A stretch of DNA of 64,000 bases from Escherichia coli 042 (GTDB taxonomy: Bacteria; Pseudomonadota; Gammaproteobacteria; Enterobacterales; Enterobacteriaceae): NCBI RefSeq assembly GCF_000027125.1, contig NC_017626.1; one strand, given 5' to 3'. Position numbers and translations under genes: made by a program. The notes under the pieces are model-generated. The model ran no database searches. It was not told where the DNA came from and saw only the letters and a list, made by a program, of their open reading frames with translations. Below, piece by piece: positions 3,167-50,846 of the stretch. Each line of letters starts with the position of its first letter. The stretch's first letter is position 1.

Positions 3167-3694
3167 ATGATTTTTCTCATGACGAAAGATTCTTTTCTTT
3201 TACAGGGCTTTTGGCAGTTGAAAGATAATCACGAAATGATAAAAATCAATTCCCTGTCAGAGATCAAAAAAGTAGGCAATAAACCCTTCAAGGTTATCAT
3301 TGATACCTATCACAATCATATCCTTGATGAAGAAGCGATTAAATTTCTGGAGAAATTAGATGCCGAGAGAATTATTGTTTTGGCACCTTATCACATCAGT
3401 AAACTAAAAGCTAAAGCGCCTATTTATTTTGTCAGCCGCAAAGAAAGTATCAAAAATCTTCTTGAGATTACTTATGGTAAACACTTGCCCCATAAGAATT
3501 CACAATTATGTTTTTCACATAATCAGTTCAAAATTATGCAACTGATTCTGAAAAATAAAAATGAAAGCAATATCACGTCGACGCTCAATATTTCGCAACA
3601 AACATTAAAGATTCAGAAATTCAACATTATGTACAAGCTGAAACTAAGACGTATGAGCGACATCGTCACCCTGGGTATCACATCTTATTTTTAG
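3167..3694 (+). CDS. gadE: LuxR-family acid-resistance master regulator GadE
   Basis: ORF 3089..3694 trimmed to the ATG at 3167 (MIFLMTKDSFLLQGFWQL...), preceded by AAGGAG at 3155-3160; 175 aa with C-terminal LuxR-type HTH. Confidence 0.93.
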   Translation: MIFLMTKDSFLLQGFWQLKDNHEMIKINSLSEIKKVGNKPFKVIIDTYHNHILDEEAIKFLEKLDAERIIVLAPYHISKLKAKAPIYFVSRKESIKNLLEITYGKHLPHKNSQLCFSHNQFKIMQLILKNKNESNITSTLNISQQTLKIQKFNIMYKLKLRRMSDIVTLGITSYF

Positions 3695-45109: not shown

Positions 45110-45297
45110 TGACCATCAGCGATATCATTGAAATTATTGTCGTTTGCGCACTGATATTTTTCCCGCTGGGCTATCTGGCGCGGCACTCTTTGCGACGCAT
45201 TCGCGACACCTTACGTTTGTTCTTTGCTAAACCTCGTTATGTTAAACCGGCCGGGACGTTACGCCGCACGGAAAAAGCCAGGGCAACCAAAAAATGA
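45106..45297 (+). CDS. bcsF: Small membrane protein BcsF
   Basis: 63-aa single-TM ORF overlapping the bcsE stop and the bcsG start by 4 nt each. Confidence 0.88.
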
Positions 45298-46973
45298 CTC
45301 AATTTACGCAAAATACCGCCATGCCTTCTTCCCTCTGGCAATACTGGCGCGGCCTTTCCGGCTGGAACTTCTATTTTCTGGTTAAGTTCGGCCTGTTGTG
45401 GGCGGGATATCTTAACTTCCATCCGCTCCTCAATCTGGTGTTTGCCGCGTTTCTGCTGATGCCCATTCCGCGCTACAGCCTGCATCGCTTACGCCACTGG
45501 ATTGCCCTGCCGATCGGCTTTGCTTTGTTCTGGCATGACACCTGGTTGCCTGGCCCGGAAAGCATAATGAGCCAGGGTTCGCAGGTGGCGGGGTTCAGTA
45601 CCGATTATTTAATCGACCTTGTCACACGCTTTATTAACTGGCAGATGATTGGGGCCATTTTTGTTTTATTAGTGGCCTGGTTATTCCTGTCACAATGGAT
45701 TCGCATTACCGTTTTTGTGGTTGCCATTCTGCTATGGCTGAACGTACTTACCCTGGCGGGACCAAGTTTCTCCTTGTGGCCAGCCGGTCAACCGACGACC
45801 ACTGTAACAACGACGGGTGGCAACGCAGCGGCAACCGTTGCGGCGACGGGTGGCGCACCGGTAGTGGGTGATATGCCCGCACAAACTGCACCGCCAACAA
45901 CGGCGAACCTTAACGCCTGGCTGAATAATTTCTATAACGCGGAGGCGAAACGTAAATCGACCTTCCCGTCTTCGCTGCCCGCTGATGCTCAACCATTTGA
46001 ACTACTGGTGATTAATATCTGTTCGCTTTCCTGGTCGGATATTGAAGCCGCCGGGTTGATGTCGCATCCGCTGTGGTCGCATTTCGATATTGAGTTCAAG
46101 AACTTTAACTCCGCCACCTCCTACAGTGGCCCGGCGGCGATCCGTTTACTGCGCGCCAGCTGCGGGCAGACTTCGCACACTAATCTGTATCAACCGGCAA
46201 ATAATGACTGCTATCTGTTTGATAACCTGTCGAAACTGGGCTTTACCCAGCACCTGATGATGGGACATAACGGCCAGTTCGGCGGTTTTTTGAAAGAAGT
46301 TCGCGAAAATGGCGGCATGCAGACCGAATTGATGGATCAAACAAATCTGCCGATTATTTTGCTGGGCTTTGATGGTTCGCCGGTTTATGACGATACCGCC
46401 GTGCTTAACCGCTGGCTGGACGTTACCGAAAAAGATAAAAACAGCCGTAGTGCCACGTTCTACAACACGCTTCCACTGCATGACGGCAACCATTATCCGG
46501 GCGTCAGCAAAACAGCGGATTACAAAGCGCGGGCGCAGAAATTCTTTGATGAACTGGACGCCTTCTTTACTGAACTGGAGAAATCGGGTCGTAAAGTGAT
46601 GGTGGTCGTGGTGCCGGAACACGGCGGCGCGCTGAAGGGCGACAGAATGCAGGTATCTGGCCTACGTGATATCCCTAGCCCGTCTATCACAGACGTCCCC
46701 GTTGGGGTGAAATTCTTCGGCATGAAGGCACCACATCAGGGGGCACCGATTGTCATCGACCAACCGAGCAGCTTCCTGGCTATCTCCGATCTGGTGGTTC
46801 GCGTTCTTGATGGCAAGATTTTCTCCGAAGACAATGTTGACTGGAAAAAACTCACCAGTGGGTTGCCACAAACAGCACCGGTCTCCGAGAACTCAAATGC
46901 AGTAGTTATTCAATACCAGGATAAACCGTACGTTCGCCTGAACGGCGGCGACTGGGTGCCTTACCCGCAATAA
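45294..46973 (+). CDS. bcsG: Cellulose phosphoethanolamine transferase BcsG
   Basis: 559-aa ORF with N-terminal TM helices and a C-terminal alkaline-phosphatase-like domain. Confidence 0.93.
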
Positions 46974-47059
46974 GAACGAAAAAGGCCGCAGAGTTTCACC
47001 CCTGCGGCCTGATCCGGGCGCAAATTGCCATTACGGCAGCCTGACGCCCGCATGACACG

Positions 47060-47167
47060 TTACTTCCGCTTATTCAGCGAGTTCACGATCAGACTGGCAA
47101 GAATGCCAGCAATGACCGGAGCCGCTAAATCATGCCAGAAGGCCATGCCCAGTTCTGCGAGCGTCAT
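47060..47167 (-). CDS. ldr: Ldr-family type I toxin peptide (35 aa), copy 1
   Basis: MTLAELGMAFWHDLAAPVIAGILASLIVNSLNKRK; ATG at 47165-47167. The ORF-track 80-aa ORF is an upstream in-frame extension. Confidence 0.85.
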   Translation of the reverse strand: MTLAELGMAFWHDLAAPVIAGILASLIVNSLNKRK

Positions 47168-47215
47168 ATAGCCGCCTCTGTTGTAATGACAACGTTTCGC
47201 GGCTATTCTTGAGTT

Positions 47216-47283
47216 GTTTGGGTTCAAGATTAGCCCCCGTGATGTTGTCAGGTGCATACCTGCAACGTGCGGGGGTTTTCTCT
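47216..47283 (+). ncRNA. rdl: Rdl-family antisense RNA, copy 1
   Basis: Plus-strand element ending in the hairpin gcccccg...cgggggttttctct within the ldr leader; coordinates inferred from my recollection of RdlD. Confidence 0.55.
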
Positions 47284-47542
47284 CTCCAGCAACCAATGCC
47301 ACCAGGGATTAAGCCCCCGCAACATTGCGCCTCACCGGAACCCTTCCGGCTTGCCGCTGATTCTACGGCCATTTTTGTTCGTCGAAATCCATCACTTCTT
47401 CACTCTGTGCTGCGCATTCCGCAGAATATTATCCGCTTGCAGCCGTTGCATTTTTCTTACGAAAAAGGCCGCAGAGTTTCACCTCTGCGGCCTGGTCCGG
47501 GCGCAAATTGCCATTACGGCAGCCTGACGCCCGTCTGACACG

Positions 47543-47650
47543 TTACTTCCGCTTATTCAGCCAGTTCACGATCATGCTGGCAAGAATGCCAGCAATGACC
47601 GGAGCCGCTAAATCATGCCAGAAGGCCATGCCCAGCTCTGCGAGCGTCAT
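47543..47650 (-). CDS. ldr: Ldr-family type I toxin peptide (35 aa), copy 2
   Basis: Same frame and length as copy 1; C-terminus ...ASMIVNWLNKRK; not reported separately in the ORF track. Confidence 0.8.
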   Translation of the reverse strand: MTLAELGMAFWHDLAAPVIAGILASMIVNWLNKRK

Positions 47651-47698
47651 ATAGCCGCCAGTGTTGTAATGACAACGTTTCGCGGCTATTCTTGAGTT

Positions 47699-47766
47699 GT
47701 GTAGGTTCAAGAATGGCCCCCGTCATATTGTCAGGTGAATACCTGCAACGTGCGGGGGTTTTCTCT
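47699..47766 (+). ncRNA. rdl: Rdl-family antisense RNA, copy 2
   Basis: Repeat-unit copy of the rdl element with terminator hairpin. Confidence 0.5.
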
Positions 47767-48025
47767 CTCCAGCAACCAATGCCACCAGGGATTAAGCCCC
47801 CGCAACATTGCGCCTCACCGGAACCCTTCCGGCTTGCCGCTGATTCTACGACTGTTTTTCTGTTCCGAAATCCATCACTTCTTCACTCTGTGCTGCGCAT
47901 TCCGCAGAATATTATCCGCTTGCAGCCGTTGCATTTTTCTTACGAAAAAGGCCGCAGAGTTTTATCCCTGCGGCCTGATCCGGGCGCAAATTGCCATTAC
48001 GGCAGCCTGACGCCCGTCTGACACG

Positions 48026-48133
48026 TTACTTCTGCTTGTTCAGCCAGTTCACGATCATGCTGGCAAGAATGCCAGCAATGACCGGAGCCGCTAAATCGTG
48101 CCAGAAGGCCATGCCCAGCTCTGCGAGCGTCAT
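48026..48133 (-). CDS. ldr: Ldr-family type I toxin peptide (35 aa), copy 3
   Basis: MTLAELGMAFWHDLAAPVIAGILASMIVNWLNKQK. Confidence 0.85.
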   Translation of the reverse strand: MTLAELGMAFWHDLAAPVIAGILASMIVNWLNKQK

Positions 48134-48181
48134 ATAGCCGCCTCTGTTGTAATGACAACGTTTCGCGGCTATTCTTGAGTT

Positions 48182-48249
48182 GTGTAGGTTCAAGAATGGC
48201 CCCCGTGATGTTGTCAGGTGCATACCTGCAACGTGCGGGGGTTTTCTCT
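48182..48249 (+). ncRNA. rdl: Rdl-family antisense RNA, copy 3
   Basis: Repeat-unit copy of the rdl element with terminator hairpin. Confidence 0.5.
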
Positions 48250-48508
48250 CTCCAGCAACCAATGCCACCAGGGATTAAGCCCCCGCAACATTGCGCCTCA
48301 CCGGAACCCTTCCGGCTTGCCGCTGATTCTACGACTGTTTTTCTGTTCCGAAATCCATCACTTCTTCACTCTGTGCTGCGCATTCCGCAGAATATTATCC
48401 GCTTGCAGCCGTTGCATTTTTCTTACGAAAAAGGCCGCAGAGTTTCACCTCTGCGGCCTGGTCCGGGCGCAAATTGCCATTACGGCAGCCTGACGCCCGT
48501 CTGACACG

Positions 48509-48616
48509 TTACTTCCGCTTGTTCAGCCAGTTCACGATCATGCTGGCAAGAATGCCAGCAATGACCGGAGCCGCTAAATCATGCCAGAAGGCCATGCCCA
48601 GTTCTGCGAGCGTCAT
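48509..48616 (-). CDS. ldr: Ldr-family type I toxin peptide (35 aa), copy 4
   Basis: MTLAELGMAFWHDLAAPVIAGILASMIVNWLNKRK. Confidence 0.85.
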   Translation of the reverse strand: MTLAELGMAFWHDLAAPVIAGILASMIVNWLNKRK

Positions 48617-48664
48617 ATAGCCGCCTGAGTTGTAATGACAACGTTTCGCGGCTATTCTTGAATG

Positions 48665-48732
48665 GTCTAGATGCAAGAATGGCCCCCGTGGTGTTGTCAG
48701 GTGCATACCTGCAACGTGCGGGGGTTTTCTCT
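48665..48732 (+). ncRNA. rdl: Rdl-family antisense RNA, copy 4 (RdlD-like)
   Basis: gtctagatgcaagaatggcccccgtggtgttgtcaggtgcatacctgcaacgtgcgggggttttctct, the copy closest to the RdlD sequence as I recall it. Confidence 0.6.
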
Positions 48733-48991
48733 CTCCAGCAACCAATGCCACCAGGGATTAAGCCCCCGCAACATTGCGCCTCACCGGAACCCTTCCGGCT
48801 TGCCGCTGATTCTACGGCCATTTTTGTTCGTCGAAATCCATCACTTCTTCACTCTGTGCTGCGCATTCCGCAGAATATTATCCGCTTGCAGCCGTTGCAT
48901 TTTTCTTACGAAAAAGGCCGCAGAGTTTTATCCCTGCGGCCTGATCCGGGCGCAAATTGCCATTACGGCAGCCTGACGCCCGTCTGACACG

Positions 48992-49099
48992 TTACTTCTG
49001 CTTGTTCAGCCAGTTCACGATCATGCTGGCAAGAATGCCAGCAATGACCGGAGCCGCTAAATCGTGCCAGAAGGCCATGCCCAGCTCTGCGAGCGTCAT
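48992..49099 (-). CDS. ldr: Ldr-family type I toxin peptide (35 aa), copy 5
   Basis: MTLAELGMAFWHDLAAPVIAGILASMIVNWLNKQK. Confidence 0.85.
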   Translation of the reverse strand: MTLAELGMAFWHDLAAPVIAGILASMIVNWLNKQK

Positions 49100-49147
49100 A
49101 TAGCCGCCTCTGTTGTAATGACAACGTTTCGCGGCTATTCTTGAGTT

Positions 49148-49215
49148 GTGTAGGTTCAAGAATGGCCCCCGTGATGTTGTCAGGTGCATACCTGCAACGT
49201 GCGGGGGTTTTCTCT
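49148..49215 (+). ncRNA. rdl: Rdl-family antisense RNA, copy 5
   Basis: Repeat-unit copy of the rdl element with terminator hairpin. Confidence 0.5.
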
Positions 49216-49574
49216 CTCCAGCAACCAATGCCACCAGGGATAAAGCCCCCGCAACATTGCGCCTCACCGGAACCTTTCCGGCTTGCCGCTGATTCTACGA
49301 TTGCTTTTTACCGTCAGCACCCGGCAATCTTCCTCATTGCGCGATGCCTTCCAGCTTAATTTCTTTATTTGCAATAGTTGCAGTTCATATCCGGGCTGAC
49401 TCCAGACTGGTAGTGAAATGCGCAATTTTGTAGAATTGCGCCTCCTCGCGACCTCCCCAGTGAATCTGTTGCCTCATTTTTTACATACTGCGTATTCGAC
49501 TTCTCCACCTGTTGCGCAAGAGAAACTGGGTTTATTCATTTTTGCGAGGCCGACTTCTTTCTGGACAGGACTTT

Positions 49575-50846
49575 ATGCAGCACAACACACTACCGAAACA
49601 CGATCAGAAATTGCCGTTTACACGCTACGACTTCGGCTGGGTTTTATTATGCATAGGCATGGCGATTGGTGCCGGAACCGTGCTGATGCCAGTACAAATT
49701 GGCTTGAAGGGAATTTGGGTATTTATTACCGCAGCGATCATTGCTTATCCTGCCACCTGGGTAGTGCAGGACATTTATTTAAAAACCCTTTCTGAAAGCG
49801 ATTCCTGTAATGACTACACCGATATTATCAGTCATTACCTGGGGAAGAACTGGGGAATTTTCCTCGGGGTTATCTACTTTTTGATGATTATCCACGGGAT
49901 TTTTATCTACTCTCTCTCCGTGGTTTTCGACAGCGCCTCGTACCTGAAAACCTTCGGTTTAACCGATGCCGATCTTTCACAATCTCTACTTTATAAAGTC
50001 GCCATTTTCGCCGTACTGGTGGCGATTGCGTCTGGTGGTGAACGATTACTGTTTAAGATTTCCGGGCCAATGGTGGTGGTCAAAGTAGGGATTATTGTCG
50101 TGTTCGGTTTTGCGATGATCCCGCACTGGAATTTCGCCAATATAACCGCCTTCCCGCAAGCCTCCGTCTTTTTCCGCGATGTCCTGCTTACCATTCCATT
50201 TTGCTTCTTTTCTGCAGTATTTATTCAGGTACTTAACCCAATGAATATTGCCTATCGTAAACGGGAAGCAGATAAAGTACTGGCAACCCGGCTCGCGCTG
50301 CGTACCCACCGAATTAGTTATATCACGCTCATCGCGGTGATCCTGTTTTTTGCCTTTTCGTTTACCTTCTCAATTAGCCACGAAGAAGCCGTTTCTGCCT
50401 TTGAACAAAATATCTCGGCACTGGCACTGGCCGCGCAGGTGATCCCTGGACATATCATTCATATCACCTCGACGGTGCTGAATATCTTTGCCGTACTGAC
50501 CGCATTCTTTGGCATTTATCTCGGTTTCCACGAGGCCATTAAAGGCATTATTCTCAATCTGTTAAGCCGAATCATTGATACCAAGAAAATTAACTCACGC
50601 GTGCTGACTCTGGCGATCTGCGCTTTTATCGTCATTACGTTGACGATTTGGGTTTCGTTTCGTGTATCGGTGCTGGTGTTCTTTCAGTTGGGAAGCCCGT
50701 TATATGGCATTGTGTCGTGCCTCATTCCATTTTTCCTGATCTATAAAGTCGCACAACTGGAAAAACTTCGCGGGTTTAAAACCTGGCTGATTCTGCTGTA
50801 CGGCATTTTGCTATGCTTGTCGCCACTGTTGAAGCTGATTGAGTAA
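49575..50846 (+). CDS. yhjV: Amino acid permease-like inner membrane transporter YhjV
   Basis: ORF 49512..50846 trimmed to the ATG at 49575 ([36 protein letters not shown]...); 423 aa; polytopic. Confidence 0.9.

What the first reader, a model, noticed from the sequence alone, without database searches (positions are those of the whole stretch)
49216..49400. Truncated distal end of the LDR array next to yhjV
The fifth unit departs from the repeat consensus after about 49297 (gattctacga then ttgctttttaccgtcagc..., where the other units read gattctacggccatttttgttcg...). The last ldr copy therefore has a different upstream region, which should contain the ldr promoter and leader. It may be regulated differently from the internal copies, or it may represent the ancestral single-copy junction.
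Basis: seen in the sequence. Interest (0 to 1): 0.3.

Follow-up and report, generated by a model that had tools for sequence, protein, structure and literature searches.

The report
Fixed outer edge of ldr/rdl array
The spot where the fifth toxin-antitoxin repeat stops matching the others is the ordinary, species-wide boundary between a copy-number-variable ldr/rdl array and its old single-copy flank next to yhjV. It falls inside the ldr promoter, between the -10 and -35 boxes, so the last copy shares its transcript with the others but not its upstream promoter DNA.

Summary
Window 46976-49299 holds five tandem LDR-D-type ldr/rdl modules between bcsG and yhjV: 392-bp cores 95-99.5% alike, 91-bp spacers, period 483. 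After 49299 unit 5 falls to 49% identity with the spacers.

The flank beyond is the K-12 single-copy ldrD flank (99.6% over 275 bp). It occurs once in 5409 of 5426 complete E. coli genomes. The spacer occurs 1-4 times in 3262 genomes, so copy number varies from 1 to 5.

ldr lies on the minus strand. The published K-12 ldrD start (3,700,272) maps to window 49284, 7 nt below TAGAAT (49297-49292). Divergence therefore starts at -16:
- **Shared by all five copies:** the -10 box, start site, 185-nt leader, rdl gene, ORF and terminator.
- **Different in unit 5:** the spacer, the -35 region (distal GTGCTG, internal ATTTCG) and the upstream DNA.

Unit 5 is not truly truncated. Its flank still matches the spacers in exact register (49% against 21-33% at other offsets, z about 5).

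Single-copy LDR cores ending at the same CGTAGAAT sit beside bcsG in E. whittamii, Salmonella and Citrobacter. This supports the "ancestral junction" reading. Differential regulation is plausible but untested.

The locus is known and of low interest.

The parts
46976..49299 (-). Tandem LDR-D-type array. Five 392-bp cores: 46976-47367, 47459-47850, 47942-48333, 48425-48816, 48908-49299. Four 91-bp spacers: 47368-47458 and 48817-48907 (variant A); 47851-47941 and 48334-48424 (variant B).
48908..49299 (-). Core of unit 5, the yhjV-proximal copy: terminator, ldr ORF, leader with rdl on the opposite strand, and -10 box. It is 99.5% identical to unit 3 and 95.4% to K-12 LDR-D.
48992..49099 (-). ldr ORF of unit 5 (35 aa plus stop), MTLAELGMAFWHDLAAPVIAGILASMIVNWLNKQK.
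   Evidence: (PF13940, 89.7 bits)
49148..49213 (+). rdl antisense RNA gene of unit 5, complementary to ldr leader positions +72 to +137.
   Evidence: RF01813, 83.8 bits
48915..48942 (-). Intrinsic terminator hairpin of the unit 5 ldr mRNA. It gives a predicted transcript of about 376 nt from 49284.
49284..49284 (-). Inferred ldr transcription start of unit 5 (an A). It is the positional equivalent of the K-12 ldrD start at 3,700,272. A conserved 5' hairpin CCGG..CCGG begins at +4.
49292..49297 (-). -10 hexamer TAGAAT. It is shared by all five units, by K-12 ldrD and, as TAGTAT, by ldrA, ldrB and ldrC. It is the last element of the conserved core.
49315..49320 (-). -35-position hexamer GTGCTG of the distal copy (17-bp spacer, 2 of 6 matches to TTGACA). 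Internal units have ATTTCG here.
49300..49394 (-). Distal promoter-upstream segment. It is a diverged homologue of the inter-unit spacer (49% identity in exact register) and is orthologous to the K-12 ldrD upstream region.
49338..49353 (.). TGGAAGGCATCGCGCA on the minus strand. This is a degenerate remnant of a palindrome (TGCGA-N6-ACGCA) that is conserved in Salmonella and Citrobacter and centred at -61.5 from the ldr start.
49369..49382 (.). TGCAACTATTGCAA on the minus strand. The TGCAA-N4-TGCAA repeat is also kept in the internal spacers (TGCAACGGCTGCAA) and in the K-12 ldrB and ldrC spacers.
49575..50846 (+). yhjV, transcribed divergently from the distal ldr copy.
45294..46973 (+). bcsG. 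Its stop codon lies a few bases from the terminator of unit 1.

Best explanation
Positions 49216-49400 are the promoter region of the outermost, yhjV-proximal copy of a five-copy ldr/rdl (LDR-D type) type I toxin-antitoxin array.

Each repeat is a 392-bp core plus a 91-bp spacer. The core carries the terminator, the 35-aa toxin ORF, the 185-nt leader with the antisense rdl gene, the transcription start and the -10 box.

The array most likely grows and shrinks by unequal homologous recombination between units (inferred). Those exchanges never reach past the last core. The DNA upstream of the last -10 box is therefore the fixed, orthologous single-copy flank found in nearly every E. coli, including single-copy K-12.

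The homology break falls at -16 from the ldr start. All five copies should make the same mRNA from the same -10 box and start site. The distal copy differs in three ways:
- It has its own spacer, -35 region and upstream DNA.
- It is the only copy that faces yhjV.
- It is the only copy not preceded about 90 bp upstream by the terminator of another ldr unit.

Any difference in expression is therefore limited to promoter strength, upstream regulation or read-through. It cannot involve the leader or rdl control. The structure and orthology are shown by the data. The start site is carried over from K-12 by sequence identity. A regulatory difference is inference only.
For: - **Array anatomy:**
- **Unit 5 flank equals the K-12 ldrD flank:** 99.6% over 275 bp, and the bcsG end is 98.2% identical (alignment).
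- **Flank is single-copy and near-universal:** present once in 5409 of 5426 complete E. coli genomes.
- **Spacer varies in number:** present 1-4 times in 3262 genomes. Examples with 1, 2, 3 and 5 copies were inspected. Three pairs in BL21(DE3) are published (PMC5435950).
- **Start site:** the K-12 ldrD start of 3,700,272 comes from 5'-specific RNA-seq compiled in PMC7967276 Table S1. It maps to window 49284, 7 nt below TAGAAT. The predicted 376-nt mRNA fits the roughly 370 nt I recall from Kawano 2002.
- **Conserved 5' hairpin:** it starts right after the start site and shows compensatory changes across genera.
- **Core always ends at the same place:** all LDR paralogues and orthologues stop being alignable at CGTAGAAT.
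- **-35 position:** distal GTGCTG against internal ATT(T/C)CG in every genome inspected.
- **Residual homology:** flank against spacer is 49% identical in register, z about 5.
- **Orthologues:** single-copy LDR cores lie beside bcsG in E. whittamii, Salmonella arizonae and diarizonae, and many Citrobacter.
Against: - No transcript data exist for this strain or for any internal LDR-D-type unit. The start site is transferred from K-12.
- The -35 matches are poor in both contexts (2 of 6). The generic sigma-70 scan found no promoter at all in the region. The upstream difference may therefore have no effect.
- Spacer and flank differ by about 51%. That is far more than a recent local duplication would leave, so the origin of the spacer is not explained. 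The orthologous flank is itself only 56% identical between E. coli and E. albertii over this segment.
Confidence: 0.85

Rival explanations
1. The divergence has no regulatory effect. The ldr promoter is in practice the -10 box plus downstream sequence, the -35 region is non-functional in every copy, and all five copies are expressed alike.
For: Conservation among all LDR paralogues and orthologues begins exactly at -15. The -35-position hexamers match TTGACA at only 2 of 6 positions in both distal and internal units. The consensus scan finds no promoter.
Against: There is no TGn extended -10 to compensate; the sequence is CG-TAGAAT. A T at -35 is invariant, and TG at -35/-34 is kept in all single or distal copies across genera but is TT in the internal units. 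Internal units also sit about 90 bp below another unit's terminator, so read-through could affect them.
Confidence: 0.35
2. The break is the end of a mobile or inserted element: the LDR transposed in, and 49299/49300 is its insertion boundary.
For: The identity drop is sharp and occurs at the same base in all copies.
Against: - There are no terminal inverted repeats. The only inverted repeats are the terminator hairpins.
- There is no transposase ORF.
- The core lies beside bcsG in Escherichia, Salmonella and Citrobacter.
- The flank keeps in-register homology to the spacers.
- Fozo et al. 2010 found no horizontal transfer for Ldr.
Confidence: 0.03
3. The five-copy array or its edge is an assembly artefact: a mis-joined or over-expanded repeat.
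For: No complete genome matches the 3.1-kb region better than 97.6%.
Against: - The five units carry distinct SNP patterns and two spacer variants.
- Many finished genomes carry five annotated Ldr genes at this locus.
- The distal junction is identical in structure in genomes with 1, 2, 3 and 5 copies.
Confidence: 0.02

Closest known systems
LDR-D (ldrD/rdlD) of E. coli K-12, between bcsG and yhjV (Kawano et al. 2002; annotation in NC_000913.3)
   Same: - Same locus and same flanks (98.2% and 99.6% identity).
- Same 35-aa toxin family and the same rdlD RNA.
- Same -10 box and start-site position.
- The upstream DNA of unit 5 matches K-12 almost base for base.
   Different: K-12 has one copy and this window has five. 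The unit 5 body resembles unit 3 of the same array (99.5%) more than K-12 ldrD (95.4%).
LDR-A/B/C tandem array of K-12 (kdsA-chaA)
   Same: Tandem, co-oriented ldr/rdl units. The same core ends at CGTAG(T/A)AT, and a spacer lies between that point and the next unit's terminator.
   Different: - The period is 535 bp rather than 483 bp.
- The cores are about 81% identical to those here.
- In K-12 the distal ldrC keeps about 100 bp of upstream DNA that still resembles the ldrA and ldrB spacers. Here the distal flank is only 49% like the spacers.
Three ldrD/rdlD pairs between bcsG and yhjV in E. coli BL21(DE3) (Kim et al. 2017, PMC5435950)
   Same: Copy-number expansion at the same locus. The C41(DE3) locus shows the same arrangement: internal ATTCCG-type upstream DNA and distal GTGCTG-type upstream DNA.
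   Different: Three copies rather than five.
Other tandemly duplicated type I toxin-antitoxin loci (ibs/sib; Fozo et al. 2010, PMC2887945)
   Same: Lineage-specific tandem duplication of a small toxin gene with its antisense RNA in one intergenic region.
   Different: Different toxin and RNA families. No comparison of edge and internal promoters was made here for those loci.

Membership tests
ldr/rdl type I toxin-antitoxin module (LDR) | 35-aa hydrophobic Ldr toxin ORF | tested here: met
   All five ORFs match PF13940 Ldr_toxin over positions 1-35 at 83-93 bits, against a cut-off of 27.
ldr/rdl type I toxin-antitoxin module (LDR) | cis-encoded antisense Rdl RNA opposite the ldr leader | tested here: met
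   Five full-length RF01813 hits at 78-90 bits, against a gathering score of 50. Each lies 49 nt beyond the ldr ATG on the opposite strand.
ldr/rdl type I toxin-antitoxin module (LDR) | Long 5' UTR transcribed from a promoter about 185 nt upstream of the ATG | tested here: inconclusive
   The sequence around the K-12 ldrD start (3,700,272) is conserved in all five units, including TAGAAT and the A at +1. Transcription in this strain was not measured.
ldr/rdl type I toxin-antitoxin module (LDR) | Intrinsic terminator after the ORF | tested here: met
   Five hairpins of 11 pairs, each followed by a T-run, on the minus strand.
ldr/rdl type I toxin-antitoxin module (LDR) | Toxicity of Ldr and its repression by Rdl | not testable with these tools
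   This needs expression experiments.
LDR-D locus (orthologue of K-12 ldrD) | Position between bcsG and yhjV with K-12-type flanks on both sides | tested here: met
   The bcsG end is 98.2% identical and the yhjV-side flank 99.6% identical to K-12. Annotation agrees.
Transposable or mobile repeat element | Terminal inverted repeats, target-site duplication, transposase | tested here: not met
   The only inverted repeats are the terminator palindromes. There is no long ORF within the array.
CRP-S (Sxy-dependent CRP) site upstream of ldr | Symmetric core TGCGA-N6-TCGCA (C6 in the half-sites; Cameron and Redfield 2006) | tested here: not met
   The window has TGGAA-GGCATC-GCGCA at 49338-49353, so the left half lacks C6 and G7. 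Salmonella and Citrobacter orthologues have TGCGA-N6-ACGCA, a 9 of 10 match. Sxy and CRP dependence were not tested anywhere.

The most novel reading that the evidence does not exclude
Distal and internal ldr copies are transcribed differently because only the spacer, the -35 region and the upstream DNA differ. The ancestral single-copy promoter was activator-dependent: a conserved CRP-S-like palindrome, TGCGA-N6-ACGCA, is centred at -61.5 in Salmonella and Citrobacter. E. coli has let that site decay, and the internal copies have lost it further. Array expansion would then add constitutive or weaker toxin genes beside one copy that keeps the ancestral upstream context.
Probability: 0.15. Interest if true: 0.4.

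Novelty: already known. Interest (0 to 1): 0.15.

Why it matters
The result mainly serves annotation. The break is not a truncation, a scar or an error. It is the constant yhjV-side boundary of a known toxin-antitoxin array whose copy number varies among strains.

It also fixes where any copy-specific regulation could lie. That is upstream of -16, not in the leader and not in rdl control.

Finally, it offers a way to tell the nearly identical copies apart in RNA data. In this window only unit 5 carries T at +9 (49275) and A at +42 (49242).

Tried and rejected
- **Primary papers not held.** The LDR papers (Kawano 2002, both papers, and Kawano 2012), Fozo 2008, Thomason 2015 and Sinha 2009 are not in the library. 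The start site therefore comes from a secondary compilation.
- **No start-site supplements for BL21(DE3)**, and no ldrA, ldrB or ldrC start sites in the compilation. No start site for an internal unit was found.
- **Generic sigma-70 scan:** zero hits. It is too strict for this promoter, which matches 7 of 12 positions.
- **Gapped global alignment score:** my scheme was uninformative, because free end gaps and harsh mismatch penalties swamped the signal. The in-register identity and offset scan were used instead.
- **'Edge-linked SNPs' idea rejected.** I considered that the unit 5-specific bases at +9 and +42 mark a gene-conversion gradient at the array edge. C41(DE3) internal unit 1 carries the same bases.
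- **Palindrome not firmly tied to ldr.** I considered that the conserved palindrome belongs to the ldr promoter. It is retained in three loci whose LDR core is deleted (L010, L017, L021), so it may serve the divergent gene instead.
- **Mobile-element reading rejected**.

Full report
**1. What is in the sequence**

Window 46976-49299 is a head-to-tail array with a 483-bp period and five units.

- Each unit encodes a 35-aa ORF on the minus strand that matches Pfam Ldr_toxin over its full length.
- Each unit has a full-length rdlD RNA gene on the plus strand (Rfam RF01813, 78-90 bits).
- Each unit has an intrinsic terminator after the ORF.
- The array lies between bcsG (45294-46973) and yhjV (49575-50846). 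The best-matching E. coli genomes annotate these genes the same way.

Because ldr is on the minus strand, its promoter lies to the right of each ORF. The finding therefore concerns the promoter side of the last copy, the one nearest yhjV.

**2. The observation**

Each unit is a 392-bp core that ends in ...GATTCTACG on the plus strand, which is CGTAGAATC on the ldr strand. A 91-bp spacer follows.

- Cores are 95.2-99.5% identical to one another. Units 3 and 5 differ at only two bases.
- After 49299, unit 5 continues with attgctttttaccgtcagc.
- The internal units continue with one of two spacer variants. Units 1 and 4 read gccatttttgttcg. Units 2 and 3 read actgtttttctgttcc.

**3. Comparison with K-12**

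In MG1655 the same intergenic region holds a single ldrD/rdlD pair.

- The 275 bp between 49300 and yhjV are 99.6% identical to K-12.
- The bcsG end is 98.2% identical to K-12.
- The unit 5 core is 95.4% identical to K-12 LDR-D (alignment).

The distal junction is thus the K-12 single-copy junction.

**4. Where the promoter is**

A compilation of 5'-specific RNA-seq data (Thomason 2015; Ettwiller 2016) lists the ldrD start at 3,700,272 in NC_000913.3 (PMC7967276 Table S1). That position is 8 bp from the start of ATTCTA in K-12. The same register in the window gives 49284. This base is an A on the minus strand, 7 nt downstream of TAGAAT (49297-49292).

- The leader is 185 nt long.
- The distance to the terminator predicts an mRNA of about 376 nt. 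This fits the roughly 370 nt I recall from the abstract of Kawano et al. 2002. That paper is not held, so the figure rests on memory.
- A hairpin, CCGG..CCGG, starts at +4. It is conserved across Escherichia, Salmonella and Citrobacter with variable loops and compensatory GC/AU changes. This fits the 5' end of a stable transcript.

Unit 5 therefore departs from the internal units at -16.

| Region | Status across the five copies |
|---|---|
| -10 box, start site, whole leader, rdl gene, ORF, terminator | shared |
| 17-bp spacer, -35 position, everything upstream | differs in unit 5 |

At the -35 position the distal copy has GTGCTG and the internal units have ATTTCG. The same split (GTGCTG against ATT(T/C)CG) holds in K-12, C41(DE3), strain 118UI, strain R32_14_1F, Escherichia sp. 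E1V33, 'E. coli' SCPM-O-B-8794 and E. whittamii. Both hexamers are poor matches to TTGACA (2 of 6). The generic scan called no promoter in the region.

**5. The unit is not really truncated**

The 95 nt upstream of the unit 5 -10 box are 49% identical to the internal spacer in exact, ungapped register.

- Identity is 21-33% at every other offset from -8 to +8.
- Shuffled sequences give 28 +/- 4%, so z is about 5.
- Identity falls to background beyond about 100 nt, where the internal units run into the next terminator.

Shared blocks include TGCAA-N4-TGCAA (49369-49382), GGAA.GC and an A5 run. The flank is therefore an old, diverged counterpart of the spacer, and unit 5 is full length in that sense.

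The origin of the spacer is unexplained. Spacer and flank differ far more than a recent local duplication would allow. However, this segment evolves fast: the orthologous flank is only 56% identical between E. coli and E. albertii.

**6. Population and other species**

Among 5,426 complete E. coli genomes:

- The distal flank (49300-49420) occurs once in 5,409 genomes.
- The spacer occurs in 3,262 genomes, at 1-4 places each.

Copy number therefore ranges from 1 to 5, and five is the maximum seen. I inspected examples with one copy (K-12, O157:H7 E32511, UPEC 536), two (118UI), three (C41(DE3)) and five (R32_14_1F). Three pairs in BL21(DE3) are already published (PMC5435950).

A scan of one genome per species with YhjV, followed by blastn, found the 392-bp core immediately after bcsG in several taxa:

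| Taxon | Copies at the locus |
|---|---|
| E. whittamii | 1 |
| Escherichia sp. E1V33 | 2 |
| 'E. coli' SCPM-O-B-8794 | 2 |
| E. albertii | at least 1 (contig edge) |
| Salmonella enterica arizonae and diarizonae | 1 |
| Many Citrobacter | 1 |

In each of these the core alignment ends at the -10 box or within two bases of it. A single copy at this locus therefore looks ancestral, and the multi-copy state was seen only in Escherichia.

**7. Mechanism**

*Shown by the data.* The array has a fixed outer edge, and the break falls inside the ldr promoter.

*Inferred.*
- Unequal recombination between cores and spacers changes the copy number but cannot replace DNA beyond the last core. The distal promoter-upstream segment therefore persists as orthologous single-copy sequence.
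- Every copy should give the same mRNA under the same Rdl control.
- The distal copy can differ only in promoter strength or upstream regulation.
- It also differs in context. It faces yhjV, whereas each internal promoter sits about 90 bp below the terminator of the preceding ldr unit and could be affected by read-through.

No expression data for internal units were found.

**8. Side observation**

In 16 Salmonella and Citrobacter orthologues, aligned without gaps from the -10 box, two things stand out:

- The -35 position reads GTGATA or ATGATA (4 of 6 matches to TTGACA).
- A block, TGCGAgGCg..ACGCAgA at -69 to -52, is much more conserved than its surroundings (1.2 bits against 0.3-0.4).

The pattern TGCGA-N6-NCGCA occurs exactly once in each of 19 of the 22 non-Escherichia loci. 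About 1.5 occurrences in total would be expected by chance. Its centre, -61.5 from the ldr start, is the classic class I activator position. The core resembles the Sxy-dependent CRP-S half-site TGCGA (PMC1635313).

Two cautions apply.
- The motif is retained in three loci where the LDR core has been deleted (L010, L017, L021). It may therefore serve the divergent gene. In many Citrobacter that gene encodes a Cys/Met PLP enzyme and lies ahead of yhjV.
- In this window the site is degenerate (TGGAAGGCATCGCGCA, 49338-49353), and it is more degenerate still in the spacers.

It is a lead, not a finding.

**9. Verdict**

The feature is real but ordinary. It is the known right-hand junction of LDR-D, seen here at the end of an expanded array.

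- Right: the upstream promoter DNA differs, and the junction is the ancestral single-copy one.
- Wrong: the leader does not differ, and the unit is not truly truncated.

The only mildly new point is that the break lies between the -10 and -35 boxes. This confines any copy-specific regulation to the region upstream of -16.

Noticed in passing
window 47060-47167 (-): The Ldr peptide of unit 1, nearest bcsG, has Ser in place of the family's conserved Trp30, plus M26L (…ASLIVNSLNKRK). The same allele is the first unit in strains R32_14_1F and 118UI, so it is a recurrent allele at that position and not an error. Its Pfam score is the lowest of the five (83.4 bits).
   Followed up: partly
window 47368-47458, 47851-47941, 48334-48424, 48817-48907: There are two spacer variants, arranged A-B-B-A. 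They differ mainly in the 20 nt next to the -10 box. Cores 3 and 5 are 99.5% identical, but cores 2 and 4 are only 96.7% identical. The array is therefore a recombination mosaic and not a simple two-unit duplication.
   Followed up: partly
L007 about 3595-3610; L011, L013-L022 and L024-L029 at the equivalent position: The palindrome TGCGA-N6-ACGCA is conserved once per locus in Salmonella, Citrobacter and Buttiauxella. It is centred at -61.5 from the ldr start and resembles a CRP-S core. It is retained even where the LDR core is deleted (L010, L017, L021).
   Followed up: partly
L013 2687-3883 (+), and equivalent positions in many Citrobacter loci: A 398-aa Cys/Met-metabolism PLP enzyme gene, like methionine gamma-lyase, lies between the LDR and yhjV in many Citrobacter. 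It is absent from Escherichia and Salmonella arizonae.
   Followed up: partly
L030 about 2886-2891, L032 and L033 about 2993-2998 (equivalent to window 49292-49297): The distal -10 box is polymorphic. It reads TAGAAT in the window, K-12, C41(DE3) and 118UI, but TAAAAT in O157:H7 E32511, UPEC 536 and R32_14_1F.
   Followed up: no
window 49369-49382, and the same position in each spacer (e.g. 48886-48899): The direct repeat TGCAA-N4-TGCAA is kept at -98 to -85 in the distal flank, in the internal spacers and in the K-12 ldrB and ldrC spacers, despite about 50% overall divergence. A possibly related TTGCCA-N2-TGGCAA palindrome lies further upstream in Citrobacter.
   Followed up: no
window 46972-47010: The unit 1 ldr terminator hairpin starts about 10 nt after the bcsG stop codon on the opposite strand. 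It probably also terminates bcsG, acting in both directions.
   Followed up: no
L017 about 2440-2520; L010, L012 and L021 similar: There are independent deletions of most of the LDR core in some Citrobacter and Buttiauxella genomes. They leave the terminator and the upstream region behind.
   Followed up: no
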